A DNA stretch of 64,000 nucleotides from positions 1 to 64,000 of IMG/VR virus record IMGVR_UViG_3300010403_000002; one strand, 5' to 3'. Under the pieces are notes generated by a model. That model made no database searches. It had not been told where the DNA came from and worked only from the letters and a program-made list of their open reading frames with translations. Below are positions 22,401 to 45,958 of the stretch, piece after piece (the stretch's first letter is position 1; each line of letters begins with the position of its first letter). The translations under genes were made by a program, and so were the position numbers. The stretch is from a virus.

Positions 22401-22635
22401 GTTCGCACGGAAGCTCGCAGATGCACCGACCTACAAGGCTGCGCCGGACGAAGAGAAGAAGGCCATGTTGGGCTTGCTCGGCGAGCGGCTCAAGGATGCG
22501 AGCAATGAAGTAGAGCCAGACCGCGCCAAGCTGGAGCCAGACCGCATTCAGAGCGACGCTGAAGCGGCAGAGGCTAGGCGACGGAAGAAAGCGGCGAGTG
22601 AGCGGGGAAGGCTGCGGTATCAGCCGGAGCGGTGA
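16483..22635 (+). CDS. Large internal virion (ejection) protein with N-terminal M15/LAS-type Zn peptidase
   Basis: SAHYDNRAID (H-x6-D) and GPHLHLE (HxH) motifs; 2050 aa, A/Q/E/R-rich helical body. Confidence 0.75.
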   Translation: MPQDAFAQWRAERRKTGKPAPAPTPLDDLTEFARARGATVTSTNRGRHNPGSAHYDNRAIDVRTRDRSPAEVEALMNDAESSGYAVRDERQRPSGQQVWGGPHLHLEAQEPPDDFAQWRAERQRPQPRNEPQIGPRVAQPATATDPFERQQPVSIGGRPLVTPTQPVKLPAVNLREARRQARDFTVPPELQSPTPEQFQNELQATRIQREQARQAYVAQQQAKVAGQGRLAEAGTRFARSAAKSTVAPLEMIAASQPTEIGEEAVRRASGLPQLDTALDEYLPVDPSKRMTANPLDPDFYSVTIPEVAGNVVPMIATGKVLPGGLASRLGATATGMMQAGGQGYREARESGATREQAQRHAGAEGVIATTEMLGGQAALGSAVRPVAREVAKDIAKDVGQEAYQQWLSNLNAADYSKIDPQRGEFEDVPVSAVGGALVSGGMNAAHAGAQRFAGNRAQARDTATVQQEPLAPPQMQRTGQLRPTQVVPRAQLEMAARQGTAPQAAPQAAPGAEENPLEAFLRERTGKLAEVAPAAEVEKPLSAIARRKLAQEQTLRERQTQAQQSNMDAADQRAEMLRRGDLAGAADLLAGELEVIGTQLKDARKLGDVEMQRRLVVSRQAAERQYDELQAQIKQQQRAVRPVAPPKAARPPRVPPSAENEPPQVQQRANAPTAEAPQQSGKLLRSVVNPEGGVPVVQRATPSFENLAEREGRREFNSEELEGNRNLWQFVKKQGGVQRSVANRGELSYLVGREGGAPGVVSDAGLPVDEMRRYANEAGFGPYETEDDFLQALRRGRNEFSNARRVSRSLADEEEAYYRQKGSAAMEAPESPSPLSQWEVRRQAAEDKAVDLRQRMMDVNDQLTQVAVGRARLSDSEQERLQHDHIYLKQQYAEAQQRLRDLEQAEPGEHSPHMQQEAESLAGVVFTPSKPAEQMTRAEWEAQPADWKRKNDHELAIIKALKHGQSVPGEVLAGYPRLKARYAALLQPAEVKPPTAPLDSAYRKLGTEDAQSISDLYARADDVHRRSSTPEERARAQQARELVGSLTEAERRAVAEVLPERRFSPVKEADQPNYGRAVQDIALDEANPQELANFESVANFFDEMAKGSAALTQDEHAAARQQLERAAELHAETITPEQRRIATGLNVLLTSTKGDAVRFRQLYDKLHEGELTRNEAYTLKDIGKQYGLAAVYLDHIIAEGGRRRADTAAASSRAERPVELRREATTGQPVERPANASAQPASGERGRNTIARQGAANAPEVVGETSTTEANPASQPLPQEQRTVVHDNPTIHGKPIVAETADGRVIVPNEANKSGVSVVKDQSGNLPEQGAAFGVRQSGFPDGSWYVTDQHGEIVRFGVPMGELPRRFKTSEAAFKAGEKWVKQQDKIRAGQKEGPASHPDAAFIESVIREQGGEMPRANLIRESGLVRSRANPALAALKAEGRVVEENGKLRLVKTQDIIPSARQPGAEGQSGQPVLNKRNPEAGAVRLGGPPRIPPNFDLTKHATDIAARMKRERRSKAEMAQAVQLLRHLEAAQKANDAAAFQAAHSQLRTHVEGGPVKRAVATGGEVLNFARSLMLTGDLPHMRQGLFLTVPPRYWKQATTDTVEALHNVRDATFKAFRKMLENAPAAKLGTKYDLYLASNGMAEENFASKWAHKFFLTRKVEQVYASYLDLRRIDAFERAARRILRNTKLGAEEKETALRDAARAINILSGRGQVGETVESAIPLLNKILLAPRYTISRLQIPTLLQPQKPGYRDAVRDLAETSAVLLSLGGLAVAAGVASTSLDYDDPDFLKLRVGNKVYDLSAGLAPVAKIAAQVSEWAWSQRPSETRRERKRVSEETVSDLARFSRGKLSPAASLMADALSDWTNMAGEKVTPTKAVLDRVIPLILRDTANAWQAEGPVGAAEIFLPAELGVGTAVYPQSPLRQSALAGDLRRFDLPRGNLYQKAGEPKETFKERQQAYGEMSREFARKLADAPTYKAAPDEEKKAMLGLLGERLKDASNEVEPDRAKLEPDRIQSDAEAAEARRRKKAASERGRLRYQPER

Positions 22636-22656
22636 GCTATTATCTGTCGGGAAGGT

Positions 22657-22923
22657 TTAGGATACGCCCTTACCATCTATCTCATCGGCCACAGGCCGCA
22701 TTCGCCGATGCTCGGCAAATAGTGTTATGGCGTGCTCCCAACGCAGTGAGGGGCCGATATGAAAACCAAAGCCACATGTCGTGCAGACGTATTCGGTATA
22801 GCCTTTTTCTTTGTGCAATGATTTACGGTAGGTATCCAACGACAGAGAGGCAACGCCGCACGCTGGGCAGTAGGCGAGTCGGGCAAACTTGCTGGTTTTG
22901 GATTCTTTCGTATAATGCGACAT
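22657..22923 (-). CDS. Zinc-ribbon protein
   Basis: CPAC ... CTTC. Confidence 0.6.
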   Translation of the reverse strand: MSHYTKESKTSKFARLAYCPACGVASLSLDTYRKSLHKEKGYTEYVCTTCGFGFHIGPSLRWEHAITLFAEHRRMRPVADEIDGKGVS

Positions 22924-22926
22924 TCC

Positions 22927-23433
22927 TTAGTCCCACCATCCGCGTAGGTGCTTCTTCAGCATCCTGCCAAGATAATCAATGTCCTGCTGTGCTAAATACT
23001 CAGCATGCTGCCAGACATAAGTCCGCCGGCGCGATGACCATTGCGGGTAGGCTGCGTGCTCGTATCCCGCCAACTCCGGATAATCATCAGCTTCAAGTCT
23101 ACGGCATAACTCTGACACGATAAGTAGCTGCTTGGCGCTGCGCTCCGAGCTGGTCACCTTGCCGTGCTTTTGATGATGCGTTGCCATTAATCGTGCGGCG
23201 GTTGAGAGCATATCCATCAGCGGAGCATAGTCACAAGTATCAAAGTGCCAGACAACGGAACGGAAACGCCAGCAGTTGCGCAGGCCCACATACAAACACC
23301 AAAGCCGCCAGCGCATAGCTGCATAAGGACGCCACCCTTCATGGTTGAATCCGAGTAGACGGCGCAGCTTGAGCCTCAGCGAGCGCCACTGTGTTGGCTT
23401 GCTTCTGGTGATTATCTCTACCGTTTTTTCCAT
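22927..23433 (-). CDS. Hypothetical phage protein
   Basis: ORF ending WWD; operon context. Confidence 0.7.
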   Translation of the reverse strand: MEKTVEIITRSKPTQWRSLRLKLRRLLGFNHEGWRPYAAMRWRLWCLYVGLRNCWRFRSVVWHFDTCDYAPLMDMLSTAARLMATHHQKHGKVTSSERSAKQLLIVSELCRRLEADDYPELAGYEHAAYPQWSSRRRTYVWQHAEYLAQQDIDYLGRMLKKHLRGWWD

Positions 23434-23776
23434 CTTTCATCCTTTTAAGTTGCAGTTCGTTGCGCTCCCGATTGCACTGCACGCAGCTTGCCACCAGATT
23501 CTCCGCTGTAGAATTGCCGCCTAACGCGTGCGGAAACAGGTGGTCAGTAGTAGCCTGATACGCCGTGATGGTTTGCCCCTCGCCGTCCACATAGCGGAAT
23601 TGTCGGCCAAGATCACATAACCCGCGCCGCCGATTTTTACGCACGGAGGCCACTGTCTTGATGATCCGTCCGCACCAAAAGCAGCGATCACGCTGCATCA
23701 TCAGCAGGAAATCGAGGTGACGCCGAGCTGTCAGGCGTTCATGGCGAACCTGTTTGCTGCTGCAATGGACTGTCAT
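23339..23776 (-). CDS. HNH endonuclease
   Basis: CFWC ... TDHLFPHALGG ... NLVASCVQCN. Confidence 0.85.
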   Translation of the reverse strand: MTVHCSSKQVRHERLTARRHLDFLLMMQRDRCFWCGRIIKTVASVRKNRRRGLCDLGRQFRYVDGEGQTITAYQATTDHLFPHALGGNSTAENLVASCVQCNRERNELQLKRMKDGKNGRDNHQKQANTVALAEAQAAPSTRIQP

Positions 23777-23951
23777 AACAATGTGAATATAGCACAGGAT
23801 GCCCGTCTTTATTGATCGAAATGCGCCTTGTCTATGGTAAAATACTGTCCACATCGAGGACGCACACAGCAGTGAGGCCGTCCGATCAGCAAGCTTGCGG
23901 GCTAGATCGTGAGCCGGGGTAGTTTGACAAAGTAAAACGAGCACGATACGC

Positions 23952-24007
23952 CGAAGGCCGTCAGGAAGAAAGCAAACTTACTGCTTAATCCTGACGGCCT
24001 TTCGTTT
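23952..24007. terminator. Long hairpin, probable (possibly bidirectional) terminator
   Basis: AAGGCCGTCAGGA ... TCCTGACGGCCTT followed by TCGTTT. Confidence 0.65.
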
Positions 24008-24064
24008 GCCGCGAGCCAGATAAATGGCATAGGCAGGTGTCTAAGCTACCTCGCGACGTTGCGC

Positions 24065-24103
24065 AGAATACGCCTTGACTCAGCCGAACGCAAGCCAGAT
24101 AAT
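24065..24103. promoter_or_regulatory. Overlapping divergent sigma70-type promoters
   Basis: Plus strand TTGACT(24075)-17-GATAAT(24098); minus strand TTGCGT-17-TATTCT. Confidence 0.7.
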
Positions 24104-24125
24104 GCGTCCCGTCTAAGCTAATCAG

Positions 24126-24236
24126 ATGACTATGGCGATCACACTGCCAAAACTGAATAACTTGACCGCGCTGGCGCGGCGATACCTTTGTGTCTGCCCG
24201 TTGGCGTGTTTATGGCTCTTGAAGTCTGAGCAATGA
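24126..24236 (+). CDS. 36-aa Cys-containing hydrophobic small ORF
   Basis: MTMAITLPKLNNLTALARRYLCVCPLACLWLLKSEQ*, directly after the plus-strand promoter. Confidence 0.35.
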   Translation: MTMAITLPKLNNLTALARRYLCVCPLACLWLLKSEQ

Positions 24237-24252
24237 GCAGTTGCATACTGCG

Positions 24253-24699
24253 CGGTTGGGGTGGAAGGCGAGATCACCGAGAAATCAAGCCTCCGGCGGT
24301 TTGCGAGTCTTGCGCTTCGGCGCTTTCACTCGCAGACGCCAGCCGAACGGGGAAGCCACCCGGTCAGGTTCAGCGCGAGATTCAACCGGAGCGATAATCC
24401 GGCCAAGCGGGCGCGCTGAGTATTGAAAACTGTTACGACTGCTTAGGCCGTTCCTCTGGCGTTATGCTCGCCAGAGTCTTCCCGGGCAACGCCGTGCTAC
24501 TAGATGCACTCACCGCCGCCTGCGTCCCGGTTGCAACTTGGTCTCTTGAAAGAATCGGCTAAGGTGGTACGGATAGCCTGTGAAATATCGGCAAAGCGGC
24601 TCAGACGGGAAGCTTCTCCACACTCGTAAGGTAAGACCAAGCGGGAAGGGCGGCGTTTCTCTACATGTGATTATTGCGGTGGTAACGGAATCTCAGCCG
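24253..24699 (+). ncRNA. Large structured non-coding RNA (ROOL/GOLLD-class candidate)
   Basis: 5'/3' closing helix with G-U pairs, many hairpins including a C(UUCG)G loop, multiple long-range pairings, upstream promoter, no credible ORF. Confidence 0.7.
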
Positions 24700-24724
24700 G
24701 GAACTCATCAGCCGGCCTCCTTCC

Positions 24725-25195
24725 TTATTCGTCCTCTACGGAAAGACCGAGCGCGCTACACGCAGCCAGCGCAATCTGTTCGGGCGTGGCAGGTAAGAAG
24801 ATGCCCACATCCATACAACTCAATACGTAATCAAAAATCTTTTGCTGTCCCACCCGACCTAGCCCTAGGGCGTGGTAAAGTTCGCCAAAGAAGCGCAGCC
24901 AAACTTGATGGGCTGCGTCTGCTGGGTCTGAGGTACGCGGGTACAACCACGCAACCAACTTAGCCGCCGCTTCTCGGTCGGTAAAGAAGGCGGGCACTAT
25001 CTGAGGGTACATCTGGTCTGGCGGTAATGGCTTAAATAATGCTGACATGCTCGCGCGCAGACGAGCCTGCTCTTGCCACTCCTGATTGTTTGGAGGCAAC
25101 CCCCAACCTTCGCCCCATTTGCTGCCAATTTCAGTCCAGCCCATCTTTTGGGCCAGCGCGGCGCACGCTGCTGTTCTGCTTATCTTCTCGCTCAT
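24725..25195 (-). CDS. NinX/BC1872-like phage protein
   Basis: AQKMGW ... PAFFTDREAA ... ATPEQIALAA pattern. Confidence 0.5.
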   Translation of the reverse strand: MSEKISRTAACAALAQKMGWTEIGSKWGEGWGLPPNNQEWQEQARLRASMSALFKPLPPDQMYPQIVPAFFTDREAAAKLVAWLYPRTSDPADAAHQVWLRFFGELYHALGLGRVGQQKIFDYVLSCMDVGIFLPATPEQIALAACSALGLSVEDE

Positions 25196-43536: not shown

Positions 43537-43890
43537 GTATAGTAGAACTATACCGCTTGTCAAGTGAGACTATACACTTTTTGCAATTTTGCTCTCGGTA
43601 CGATATTATAGGCAATCAGCAGACGCAGTAAGGTGCTACCTCTCGGCTCGGATTCGCCGGTCTCGTATTGTGAGACCGCCCCTTTTGTAACCTTTAGTAA
43701 GTCGGCAACTTGCACTTGAGTGAGTCCGGCTTTCCGGCGTGCCTTTTGTAACTTTTTGGGGTCAAGTTTGATCTCCAGAAGATTATCCATAGCGGGCCAA
43801 TTATCCCTACCTCCCTAGGCGAAGTCAAGTAGCACTATACAGAAAAAAGTAGTCAAACTAGACAAGAAGGAATGTATAGTGGGACTATAC
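43537..43890. promoter_or_regulatory. Five 17-bp operators (GTATAG-N5-CTATAC consensus) and two leftward promoters
   Basis: Operators at 43537, 43559, 43824, 43847 (degenerate) and 43874; minus-strand TTGACA-18-TACACT and TTGACT-17-GATAAT. Confidence 0.8.
43560..43790 (-). CDS. Cro-like XRE HTH regulator
   Basis: ARRKAGLTQVQVADLLKVTKGAVSQYETG. Confidence 0.9.
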   Translation of the reverse strand: MDNLLEIKLDPKKLQKARRKAGLTQVQVADLLKVTKGAVSQYETGESEPRGSTLLRLLIAYNIVPRAKLQKVYSLT

Positions 43891-44345: not shown

Positions 44346-44768
44346 TTGAAAACTATTCCTCAACGCCTATGCAAGCTCGGCTGGAACCGGCGCGTCCTTA
44401 CCTACGCTGATTTCGAACAAGCCTGCGAAGACGATCAGATCACTGTCATTACGAAGCATCTGCCCGACGACCTGGGGCAGTACCGCATCGAACAGAGCAG
44501 GGAAGTGATTACGCTCGACCGCGCATTGCACGACCCGCTGCGCGTCTTCGTTGCCTTTCACGAGTTTGGTCACGCGCTCTATCACGTGCCAGGGCATTAC
44601 GGGTTGCACGCGAAGACCGAGCTTGAGGCTGACGTGATCGCCGTGGTGGCGTTGCTGCCGCGACCGTTACTTTACAAGTTATCACCCGGAGAGATTTCCG
44701 AAGCGCTGGGCTATCCACTCTCGCTGATTGATGAGCGGTATAGCATCTTGCGCAACCTTCAACTTTAA
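44346..44768 (+). CDS. ImmA/IrrE family metallopeptidase
   Basis: HEFGH ... ELEAD; RBS AGGAGG before a TTG start. Confidence 0.85.
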   Translation: MKTIPQRLCKLGWNRRVLTYADFEQACEDDQITVITKHLPDDLGQYRIEQSREVITLDRALHDPLRVFVAFHEFGHALYHVPGHYGLHAKTELEADVIAVVALLPRPLLYKLSPGEISEALGYPLSLIDERYSILRNLQL

Positions 44769-45958
44769 TGGCAATCAAGAAAGTCTACAGCAAACGACAG
44801 AAGGCGCACGTCTGGGGCTTTGACGTGTGGGTCGGCGGTCGGCGCAAGCGTGACTTCGCCTTTGCCACCAAGCGCGAAGCCGAAGACGCTGAGGCGGCGC
44901 TCAAGCTCGCTGCGCGGGCCGACAAGTACGGCCTGGCACGCGAGCGGGTGAAAATTACCGTGGCCGATCTGGTCGAAGCCCGCGCCGCCGCCTTGCTCGC
45001 CGCTGAGAAAGAAGGGAAGGACTGGAACCGGCGGCGCGCGGTCAAGGTGCTCCGCGCGTGGCTGAAGACGCTGCCCGCCGGTCTTGCGGTGGTTGAGGTA
45101 AAGACCGCGCACGTGAGCAAATATCTTGAGCAGCGGCGACCACACTTAAAGCAATGGTCGCTGATCCACGAACTCAGCCACATACGTTCCTGCTTGAGCA
45201 GCGCGCCGAATCACTTTCCCGGATTGCAAGACTACCAGCCGCCGAAGATGCCATCGCTGCCTGCGCCACGCCGGGGCCGCGAGCGCGTGCTTGAGCCTGA
45301 AGAGTTGGAGAAGATCCAAGCTCAACTGCGCGCGCCCTGGCCGCGTGCATCCGCGCGTGATTGCAAGCGCCGTGCGGTGTTGGCCGACTTCCTGGAATTC
45401 CTGGTGCTGACTGGGATGCGCCAGGGCGAAGCCGGGCGGCTGCGCCAAGCCGATGTCAATCTGCGTTGGCATACGGCGCGCGTGGAGGCGACGAAGACCG
45501 ACACGGTGCGCACCGTCCATTTGAACGCGCGTGCTGAAGAGATCGTCAGACGACAATTGGAAGGGAATCAGACTGACTGGGTGTGGCCGAACGAGCAGGG
45601 AACTGGCTCTTACAAAATCCATCGCACCGTCTTGAAGAAATGGTGCAAGCGCGCGGGTGTCGTCTATGGTAATAACGTGGCTGGTGGTTTCGTCCCTCAC
45701 GACTCGCGCCACACGTCGGCAACTGAGATGCTTCGTGCTGGCGCAGATCTCCCGACCGTTGGCGCGGTACTTGGCCATTCAGATATGACCATGACGATGC
45801 GCTATGGTCATACCTCACCCACTCAGCAACGCGCGGCGATTGACAGGCTTGCTGAGTATGGCGTCCATTTGGAGTCTAAAGTTCGTCTAAACGACAGACC
45901 GCTAACGGAGTCCCAGAGCGGGCAGAGCGAAGCCGAAGCACTGCGAAAAACTTCCTAA
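44768..45958 (+). CDS. int: Tyrosine recombinase/integrase
   Basis: TGMRQGE, ATKT, HDSRH, LGHS, RY catalytic set. Confidence 0.95.
   Translation: MAIKKVYSKRQKAHVWGFDVWVGGRRKRDFAFATKREAEDAEAALKLAARADKYGLARERVKITVADLVEARAAALLAAEKEGKDWNRRRAVKVLRAWLKTLPAGLAVVEVKTAHVSKYLEQRRPHLKQWSLIHELSHIRSCLSSAPNHFPGLQDYQPPKMPSLPAPRRGRERVLEPEELEKIQAQLRAPWPRASARDCKRRAVLADFLEFLVLTGMRQGEAGRLRQADVNLRWHTARVEATKTDTVRTVHLNARAEEIVRRQLEGNQTDWVWPNEQGTGSYKIHRTVLKKWCKRAGVVYGNNVAGGFVPHDSRHTSATEMLRAGADLPTVGAVLGHSDMTMTMRYGHTSPTQQRAAIDRLAEYGVHLESKVRLNDRPLTESQSGQSEAEALRKTS

What the first reader, a model, noticed from the sequence alone, without database searches (positions are those of the whole stretch)
24253..24699. ~450-nt highly structured, probably pseudoknotted phage ncRNA
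Seen: a closing helix 24253-62/24690-99 with three G-U pairs (implying plus polarity); helix 24430-42/24676-88; hairpins 24295-340 (containing a C-UUCG-G loop), 24370-419 and 24454-76; GAACGG 24345/CCGUUC 24448. Three adjacent 3' segments pair with separate upstream sites: AGACCAAG 24634 with 24537, CGGGAAG 24642 with 24478, and GGCGGCG 24649 with 24514. It has a dedicated promoter, runs against the surrounding operon and has no credible ORF. Established: ROOL and GOLLD are large phage-associated RNAs of unknown function. Inference: a compact member of that class or a new class.
Basis: partly seen in the sequence, partly recalled or inferred. Interest (0 to 1): 0.85.

Follow-up and report, generated by a model that had tools for sequence, protein, structure and literature searches.

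The report
Orphan non-coding island beside phage HNH gene
A 950-base gene-free stretch in an uncultured soil phage has a convincing promoter and several strong hairpins, so it probably makes an untranslated RNA, but the claimed 450-nt pseudoknotted "large structured RNA" could not be confirmed: it matches no known RNA family and no relative was found.

Summary
The stretch is non-coding: no coding signal and no Pfam or PHROG match in any frame. A sigma-70-like promoter (TTGACT-17-GATAAT, 24075-24103, +) has the same hexamers and spacing as the phage's early promoter. Only 7 sites this good occur in 76 kb.

The evidence for one large ordered fold is weak.
- The fold scores z = -2.8 against shuffles, but ranks only 49th of 680 equal-sized windows of the same genome.
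- The extra stability comes from three or four local hairpins in the 5' half. The 3' half, which carries the proposed pseudoknot, folds like shuffled sequence.
- The two long-range helices disappear when the transcript is folded from the promoter.

Rfam 15 gives no match even at E <= 10, so this is not ROOL, GOLLD, HEARO, an intron or RNase P RNA.

No homologue of the stretch was found in any collection. Five related loci that carry the neighbouring gene lack both the gap and the HNH gene. The stretch is therefore a lineage-specific island and covariation cannot be tested. No RNA data exist.

Best reading: a promoter-driven untranslated transcript that converges on the end of the early operon. 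A new large-RNA class remains possible but unsupported. The same stretch was noted twice in this scan on this genome, never on other DNA.

The parts
23777..24724 (.). Gene-free gap of 948 nt between the HNH gene, as called in the source record, and the P0001 gene
   Evidence: ORF list. The source's HNH call is 145 aa, starting at ATG 23776. No frame has a coding signal. Six-frame pieces have no Pfam or PHROG family.
24075..24103 (+). Promoter-like site P2, TTGACT-17-GATAAT (10 of 12); predicted start near 24110
   Evidence: It is one of only 7 sites of this quality in the 76-kb genome, where 3.5 are expected by chance. About 0.04 chance sites are expected inside this gap. Hexamers and spacing are identical to the early promoter 43828-43800(-).
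24110..24722 (+). Putative untranslated primary transcript ('RNA2'); 3' end undefined
   Evidence: Fold -236 kcal/mol, z = -2.32. No intrinsic terminator is called. The 5-bp hairpin 24696-24717 scores z = -1.06 and is followed by CUCCUUCC.
24253..24699 (+).
24295..24340 (+). Hairpin 1: 4 + 9 + 4 pairs, C(UUCG)G loop on the plus strand
   Evidence: -26.7 kcal/mol, z = -5.05, 0 of 200 shuffles as good.
24370..24419 (+). Hairpin 2: an 8-bp and a 5-bp stem with large internal loops
   Evidence: z = -2.29.
24454..24476 (+). Hairpin 3: perfect 8-bp stem
   Evidence: z = -4.71, 0 of 200 shuffles as good.
24634..24655 (+). 22-nt block whose three parts are complementary to 24537-44, 24478-84 and 24514-20 (proposed pseudoknot)
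   Evidence: The complementarity is exact. Pairing probability in the nested ensemble is 0.00-0.01. The surrounding 3' half is not more stable than shuffles.
23816..23843 (+). Promoter-like site P1, TCGAAA-16-TAAAAT with a TG extension
23848..24010 (+). Candidate ~155-nt small RNA ending in a plus-strand intrinsic terminator (13-bp perfect outer stem 23954-66/23989-24001, then UUUCGUUU)
   Evidence: Fold -60.3 kcal/mol, z = -3.68, 0 of 200 shuffles as good. Inverted repeat I4. The U-run lies only on the plus strand.
23786..23794 (-). Extended -10-like TGCTATATT, 9 nt before the HNH ATG (leaderless-type start)
   Evidence: Read. The early regulator gene has the same 9-nt spacing (GATAAT, 9 nt, ATG 43790).
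23339..23776 (-). Free-standing HNH endonuclease gene (145 aa)
   Evidence: Pfam HNH_5 and HNH, PHROG HNH families. Gene call P0006. Best solved relative is 4h9d, a small HNH endonuclease.
22927..23316 (-). Gene of unknown function (phrog_8579-like, 129 aa as called)
24725..25195 (-). P0001, the last conserved gene of the early operon; complete at its C-terminus
   Evidence: 39 family representatives align to its last residues.
24661..24708 (-). 15-codon mini-ORF preceded by AAGGAAGGAGG, 7 nt upstream, directly after the P0001 stop
   Evidence: Read (frame 1). It has no relative among the downstream ORFs of related loci.

Best explanation
The 948-nt gap is a lineage-specific non-coding island that sits with a free-standing HNH endonuclease gene at the far end of the minus-strand early operon of an uncultured temperate soil phage (76 kb, direct terminal repeats).

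The island appears to carry its own transcription signals:
- An extended -10 element drives a nearly leaderless HNH mRNA leftwards.
- Promoter P1 with a plus-strand terminator gives a ~155-nt small RNA rightwards.
- The strong promoter P2 gives an untranslated plus-strand RNA of at least 600 nt. It contains several stable hairpins, has no intrinsic terminator, and runs head-on into the end of the early operon (antisense to P0001).

Most likely mode of action (inferred, not shown): the RNA and its transcription act in cis. Convergent transcription or antisense pairing would stop or dampen read-through from the early operon into the HNH cassette, and the hairpins would stabilise the transcript. 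It probably does not act as a ROOL/GOLLD-like globular RNA.

Shown: the non-coding nature, the promoter match, the hairpins, the absence from relatives, and the lack of any Rfam membership. Inferred: that it is transcribed, which strand is used, where the RNA ends, and what it does.
For: Non-coding.

Promoter P2:
- It matches 10 of 12 consensus positions, one of 7 such sites in the genome against 3.5 expected.
- About 0.04 chance sites are expected in this gap.
- Four of the other six sites lie in non-coding regulatory spacers, next to the early regulator and the integrase.
- Its hexamers and spacing equal those of the early promoter.

Other signals:
- Plus-strand terminator hairpin and a well-folding 163-nt unit between P1 and P2.
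- The HNH gene has its own -10 element, with the same 9-nt distance to the ATG as the early regulator gene.
- Strong local hairpins.
- The plus strand folds better than the minus strand, z = -2.79 against -1.80.
- UUCG tetraloop on the plus strand only.

Island status:
- Five metagenome loci with P0001 homologues have the gene at the operon end, followed by other small ORFs and convergent genes.
- None has a long gap, an HNH gene or any blastn match to the gap.
- The only related phage lacks it.
Against: - All signals are consensus matches.
- The host is unknown.
- No intrinsic terminator defines the RNA's 3' end.
- The perfect Shine-Dalgarno sequence and mini-ORF on the minus strand at 24726-24661 suggest that the minus strand is also expressed across the 3' end of the proposed RNA.
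- The enrichment of helices is strand-symmetric for the perfect stems, so it does not by itself show which strand matters, or even that RNA rather than DNA matters.
- No complementarity above chance to any other part of the phage was found, so nothing points to a trans target.
Confidence: 0.42

Rival explanations
1. A genuine large, tertiary-structured, possibly pseudoknotted and multimeric ncRNA: a singleton founder of a new class with a role like that suspected for ROOL and GOLLD.
For: - Own promoter.
- Fold z = -2.79.
- 7-mer self-complementarity in the top ~1-2% of shuffles and genome windows, including a 24-nt tiled block reached by 2 of 500 shuffles.
- UUCG-capped hairpin.
- No ORF.
Against: - No Rfam match at E <= 10.
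- Ranks only 49th of 680 among windows of its own genome.
- At least 25 windows on a finer scan, many inside long ORFs, carry as much or more self-complementarity.
- The 3' half, which holds the pseudoknot partners, scores z about -0.9.
- The long-range helices depend on the chosen ends.
- No homologue in phage records, plasmids, IMG/VR, JGI metagenomes or species-representative genomes.
- It is absent at the equivalent position in relatives.
Confidence: 0.15
2. A functionless spacer: decayed or shuffled DNA carried in with, or left behind by, the mobile HNH cassette. Its hairpins would serve at most as terminators or stabilisers at the meeting point of convergent operons, and the promoter match would be fortuitous or vestigial.
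For: - The stretch is confined to this lineage and sits next to a free-standing HNH gene, a typical mobile element.
- Its thermodynamic stability is not exceptional within the genome.
- About half of the 10-of-12 promoter matches in the genome are expected by chance.
- The content downstream of P0001 homologues varies between relatives.
Against: - About 0.04 chance promoter sites are expected within this particular gap (derived).
- Phage genomes are tightly packed, and 950 nt of junk is unusual.
- There is a clean promoter-terminator unit.
- No trace of a decayed gene was found.
Confidence: 0.28
3. A minus-strand RNA tied to the HNH gene: a long 5' leader, or an omega-RNA-like guide for an IshB-like HNH-only nuclease (OMEGA systems: an ncRNA encoded directly upstream of the nuclease on the same strand).
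For: - The gap lies directly upstream of the HNH gene on its strand.
- The only NCBIfam matches of the HNH protein are to the HNH cores of Cas9d and IscB (24-25 bits, E about 1e-5), and Cas9-type HNH chains are among its PDB matches.
- IshB proteins are described as ~180-aa HNH-only proteins of the IscB lineage (PMC10734217, PMC11610941).
Against: - The scores are far below the family cut-offs (175 and 375 bits) and cover only the generic HNH core.
- Reading the sequence shows no PLMP motif.
- There is no HEARO match on either strand at E <= 10.
- The best solved relative is a small stand-alone HNH endonuclease, 4h9d.
- The minus strand folds worse, z = -1.80.
- All promoter-like sites in the gap face the other way, and the HNH gene has its own -10 element 9 nt before its ATG.
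Confidence: 0.05
4. A DNA-level element: binding sites, a recombination site or the homing target of the HNH enzyme. The inverted and direct repeats would act as DNA.
For: - Perfect stems are strand-symmetric.
- There are short direct repeats around P2: CGCRAGCCAGATAA twice, GTCTAAGCTA twice and AATRCGCCTTGNCT three times.
Against: - The repeats are short and few.
- The palindromic operator-like sequence of the early region (GTATAGT-N3-ACTATAC) is absent here.
- The integrase and the probable attP lie 20 kb away.
- The replication genes lie elsewhere.
Confidence: 0.07

Closest known systems
ROOL and GOLLD (large ornate RNAs often found in prophages)
   Same: Located in a phage, several hundred nucleotides long, no ORF, rich in hairpins.
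   Different: No match to either Rfam model, even at E <= 10. No tRNA nearby, and none in the whole window. No family of homologues. Structure not supported by covariation.
Phage 'moron'-type units and convergent or antisense RNAs (for example lambda OOP, P22 sar; named from general knowledge)
   Same: Its own sigma-70-like promoter inside, and opposed to, a long phage operon. An untranslated transcript that would overlap the 3' end of a neighbouring gene in antisense.
   Different: It is much longer than the classical antisense RNAs. No terminator is defined. No target pairing beyond simple overlap has been shown. Nothing has been tested experimentally.
HEARO / omega-RNA with IscB, IsrB and IshB nucleases (OMEGA systems)
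   Same: A large structured non-coding stretch directly upstream of an HNH-domain gene. The HNH core weakly resembles the IscB and Cas9d HNH cores.
   Different: No HEARO match, no PLMP or RuvC domains, scores far below the family cut-offs, and the promoter and fold evidence point to the opposite strand.
Group I introns carrying HNH homing endonucleases in phages
   Same: An HNH gene next to a hairpin-rich non-coding stretch.
   Different: No interrupted host gene: P0001 is complete to its conserved C-terminus. No group I intron match at E <= 10. The HNH gene lies outside the proposed RNA and has its own promoter-like element.

Membership tests
ROOL RNA (Rfam) | Match to the family covariance model (sequence plus consensus structure) | tested here: not met
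   cmscan against Rfam 15: no match at the gathering score in the whole window, and none at E <= 10 in 23600-25000 or 24090-24730 on either strand.
ROOL RNA (Rfam) | Usual context: prophage regions, often beside tRNA genes (from general knowledge) | tested here: not met
   The setting is a phage, but ARAGORN finds no tRNA in the 64-kb window.
GOLLD RNA (Rfam) | Match to the family covariance model | tested here: not met
   No match.
HEARO / IscB-type omega-RNA | Match to the HEARO covariance model on the strand of the nuclease gene | tested here: not met
   No match on either strand at E <= 10.
HEARO / IscB-type omega-RNA | Partner protein of the IscB, IsrB or IshB lineage (PLMP domain; RuvC and/or HNH) | tested here: not met
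   NCBIfam guided_IscB scores 24.4 bits against a cut-off of 175, over the HNH core only. No PLMP motif in the translation. Pfam finds only HNH and HNH_5.
Group I intron | Match to an intron model, and a host gene split into two exons | tested here: not met
   No Rfam match. P0001 aligns to its family through its last residues, so it is not interrupted.
Group II intron | Match to an intron model (domain V) and usually a reverse-transcriptase ORF | tested here: not met
   No Rfam match. No ORF in the gap matches any Pfam or PHROG family.
RNase P RNA, tmRNA, 6S, OLE, raiA and all other Rfam 15 families | Match to the family model | tested here: not met
   ARAGORN finds no tmRNA.
Structured ncRNA in general (any class) | Base pairs supported by covariation among homologues | not testable with these tools
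   No homologue of the stretch was found in any reachable collection. The only sequencing run holding it is its probable source, with no variants.
Structured ncRNA in general (any class) | A discrete transcript of the stated strand and size | not testable with these tools
   No RNA run holds the sequence.
Structured ncRNA in general (any class) | Folding clearly better than controls | tested here: inconclusive
   z = -2.79 against shuffles, but rank 49 of 680 against windows of the same genome. The 5' hairpins are strong and the 3' half is at control level.

The most novel reading that the evidence does not exclude
The 24110-24720 plus-strand transcript is the first seen member of a new class of large, pseudoknotted phage RNAs. 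It would travel with a free-standing HNH endonuclease as a mobile cassette and act as an RNA particle in its own right, for example as a decoy or scaffold against host defence. It would be invisible to homology searches only because its phage lineage is almost unsampled.
Probability: 0.1. Interest if true: 0.75.

Novelty: new member of a known kind. Interest (0 to 1): 0.3.

Why it matters
If the large-RNA reading were true, it would add a new example to the very short list of large structured bacterial and phage RNAs of unknown function, and it would link one to a mobile nuclease cassette.

As the evidence stands, the locus is a plausible but ordinary phage non-coding transcription unit in a nearly unsampled soil phage lineage. 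Its main use is as a candidate to revisit once relatives or RNA data appear.

The check also shows that hairpin counts and a shuffle z-score near -3 are not distinctive in this genome. Many coding windows do as well.

Tried and rejected
Homologue hunts that found nothing:
- blastn of the gap against phage records and plasmids.
- The flanking proteins P0001 and P0002, and the first P0001 alignment, in IMG/VR, JGI metagenomes and species-representative genomes.
- The terminase in the species-representative genomes.
- An 18-mer from the pseudoknot block in IMG/VR, which gave one chance hit with no further similarity.
- Wider P0001 alignments in IMG/VR; one alignment was too diverse to use.

Relatives that lack the stretch:
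- The single related phage, G001 (terminase 44% identical), shares only structural genes and has neither P0001 nor the gap DNA.
- The five P0001-family metagenome loci and the two P0002-family viral loci show no similarity to the gap and no HNH neighbour.
- Rfam on those five loci found nothing.

Expression and variants:
- No RNA holder is listed. The only run is a soil metagenome that is probably the source.
- Laying it gave one identical contig with no variants.

Other checks:
- The genome search does not draw relatives for a virus record, and the metagenome records of L008, L011 and L012 are not held.
- The weak RAGATH-31 match (21 bits against a gathering score of 71.8) is just the terminator hairpin read on the minus strand.
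- Decayed-gene reading: no family match for any six-frame piece.
- Trans-target reading: no complementarity above chance elsewhere in the genome.
- Tandem repeats: none in the gap.
- The mini-ORF as a truncated copy of a downstream gene of relatives: no similarity.
- Host inference from DnaB: uninformative.

Full report
**Setting.** The window is part of a 76,215-bp IMG/VR virus record with direct terminal repeats. The phage is temperate: it has an integrase at 44768-45958(+), and a DnaB-type helicase, an O-like initiator and methylases on the minus strand. Minus-strand early genes run from about 43800 down to about 22900. Plus-strand tail genes end at 23123.

The finding lies near the far end of the early operon. 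On one side is P0001 (24725-25195, -). On the other is a free-standing HNH endonuclease gene. The source's own call for the HNH gene starts at ATG 23776 (145 aa), so the gene-free gap is 23777-24724, or 948 nt.

**The observation.** The stretch is non-coding. A codon-usage score trained on the phage's long genes finds no sustained positive frame from 23740 to 24700. No ORF exceeds about 60 codons. No six-frame piece matches Pfam or PHROGs.

**Is the fold more than chance?**
- The 447-nt core folds at -182 kcal/mol on the plus strand (z = -2.79; 2 of 100 shuffles as good) and -163 kcal/mol on the minus strand (z = -1.80).
- I folded 680 windows of the same size across the whole phage and regressed the energy on composition. 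The plus-strand core then scores z = -1.59 and ranks 49th. It is above average but not an outlier, even though its borders were chosen to close a helix.
- A strand-neutral count of perfect 7-mer self-complementarity gives 149 covered nucleotides, against 72 +/- 28 in shuffles (4 of 500 reach it) and 8 of 340 genome windows. The 24-nt tiled run that includes the 22-nt 'three-partner' block is reached by 2 of 500 shuffles and 5 of 340 windows. On a denser scan, at least 25 windows, many inside long ORFs, exceed the core.
- The excess stability is local. Hairpins 24295-340 (C-UUCG-G loop), 24454-76 and 24370-419 give z = -5.05, -4.71 and -2.29. The 3' half, which should hold the pseudoknot (24478-24592 and 24597-24665), gives z = -0.84 and -0.91.
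Both are replaced by other pairings when the RNA is folded from the predicted start (24110-24722).
- The three pseudoknot helices have probabilities of 0.00-0.01 in the nested ensemble. By simple counting, about six perfect 7-mers and five or six 10-pair helices with G-U allowed are expected by chance in 447 nt.
- The G-U argument for plus polarity is weak: 20 against 15 G-U pairs in the two minimum-energy folds.

**Transcription signals.**
- The promoter-like site TTGACT-17-GATAAT (24075-24103, +) is real and good. Only 7 sites with at least 10 of 12 matches exist on both strands of the 76-kb genome, against 3.5 expected. Four of the other six lie in the regulatory spacers next to the early regulator and the integrase. 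One of them, 43828-43800(-), has identical hexamers and spacing. Only about 0.04 chance sites are expected in this gap. A plus-strand start near 24110 is therefore likely.
- No intrinsic terminator follows. The hairpin 24696-24717 has 5 pairs, scores z = -1.06 and has a poor U-run. The RNA would therefore run on as antisense to P0001.
- Upstream there is a second, cleaner unit. An extended -10 site (23816-23843, +) is followed by a 163-nt stretch that folds at z = -3.68 (0 of 200 shuffles as good). It ends in a 13-bp perfect hairpin followed by UUUCGUUU on the plus strand only.
- The HNH gene has its own extended -10-like TGCTATATT, 9 nt before its ATG. The early XRE-type regulator gene has the same spacing after its -10. 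This suggests leaderless-type starts and means the HNH gene does not need the minus strand of the gap.
- Against a purely plus-strand picture, a perfect Shine-Dalgarno sequence and a 15-codon ORF lie on the minus strand just after P0001.

**Known families.** Rfam 15 (4227 models) gives nothing at gathering scores in the whole window. With lax filters at E <= 10 on the gap it gives only noise. The RNA is therefore not a member of ROOL, GOLLD, HEARO/omega-RNA, group I or II introns, RNase P, tmRNA, OLE or raiA.

A group I intron is also excluded by context. P0001 belongs to a family of small proteins (39 cluster representatives) and aligns through its last residues, so no gene is split.

The HNH protein's only NCBIfam matches are to the HNH cores of Cas9d and IscB (about 24 bits, far below the cut-offs). 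Its best solved relative is a small stand-alone HNH endonuclease, 4h9d. It has no PLMP motif. IshB-type HNH-only OMEGA nucleases exist (PMC10734217, PMC11610941), but nothing here meets their defining features.

**Relatives.** The phage is almost a singleton.
- No DNA match was found in phage or plasmid records.
- One distant phage (terminase 44% identical) shares only structural genes.
- Five metagenome loci with P0001 homologues were recovered with a family alignment. In all five, the homologue sits at the end of its operon and is followed by unrelated small ORFs and convergent genes. There is no long gap, no HNH gene and no similarity to the gap.
- Loci with relatives of the gene beyond the HNH gene show no synteny.

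The gap and the HNH gene are therefore specific to this lineage, and covariation cannot be tested. The only sequencing run that holds the DNA is a soil metagenome that is probably its source.

**Verdict.** The 'non-coding, own promoter, opposed to the operon' part holds. The 'compact 450-nt pseudoknotted RNA of the ROOL/GOLLD kind' part is not supported, although it cannot be excluded.

My best reading (confidence 0.42) is a promoter-driven untranslated plus-strand transcript in a mobile, HNH-associated island. It would act in cis by convergent transcription or antisense overlap at the end of the early operon, and its hairpins would serve as stabilisers.

Rivals:
- Functionless spacer brought in by the cassette: 0.28.
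- True new large structured RNA: 0.15.
- DNA-level site: 0.07.
- Minus-strand leader or omega-like RNA: 0.05.

**Earlier notes.** The same stretch was noted twice by first readers on this genome, and never on other DNA.

Noticed in passing
window 23816-24010 (+): Candidate ~155-nt small RNA. An extended -10 promoter-like site is followed by a well-folding unit (z = -3.68) that ends in a 13-bp perfect hairpin plus UUUCGUUU. On intrinsic evidence it is a more convincing ncRNA than the large one.
   Followed up: partly
window 23774-23794 (-) and 43788-43828 (-): Both the HNH gene and the early XRE-type regulator gene start exactly 9 nt after a -10 element. This suggests that the phage uses leaderless or near-leaderless mRNAs at its promoter-proximal genes.
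   Followed up: no
window 43538-43890: Operator-like palindromes GTATAGT-N3-ACTATAC: two perfect copies, plus two half-degenerate copies that overlap the -35 hexamers of the two early promoter-like sites. These are probably the repressor/Cro binding sites. They are absent from the promoter of the finding.
   Followed up: no
window 24725-25195 (-); loci L008-L012: P0001 belongs to an unannotated family of small proteins, with 39 representatives at 50% clustering. The conserved motifs are N-terminal KLTRAEACAELARRMGW, central PPDFFTSRDAAAELVAW and C-terminal LLATPEQITLAACAALGIEVE. In the five metagenome loci it is the last or second-to-last gene (third-to-last if the 50-aa ORF in L008 is counted) before convergent genes.
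   Followed up: partly
window 24661-24726 (-): A perfect Shine-Dalgarno sequence (AAGGAAGGAGG) lies 7 nt before an ATG that opens a 15-codon ORF (MSSRLRFRYHRNNHM), directly after the P0001 stop. It could be a leader peptide, the remnant of a truncated gene, or a coincidence with the pyrimidine run on the other strand.
   Followed up: partly
window 24010-24120: Short direct repeats flank the P2 promoter: CGCRAGCCAGATAA twice (79 nt apart) and GTCTAAGCTA twice (72 nt apart). A third motif, AATRCGCCTTGNCT, occurs three times, at 23820, 24067 and 24101. They could be a duplicated -10/start region or protein-binding sites.
   Followed up: no
window 22632-23316: The last plus-strand tail-module ORF (22632-23123) overlaps the last minus-strand ORF (22927-23316/23433) by about 200 nt. 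One of the two is probably shorter or spurious. The HNH ORF also overlaps the long form of the next gene.
   Followed up: no
window 23339-23776 (-): The only curated NCBIfam matches of the 145-aa HNH protein are the HNH cores of Cas9d and IscB (about 24 bits). No close relative appeared in a word-based search of 5.8 billion proteins.
   Followed up: partly
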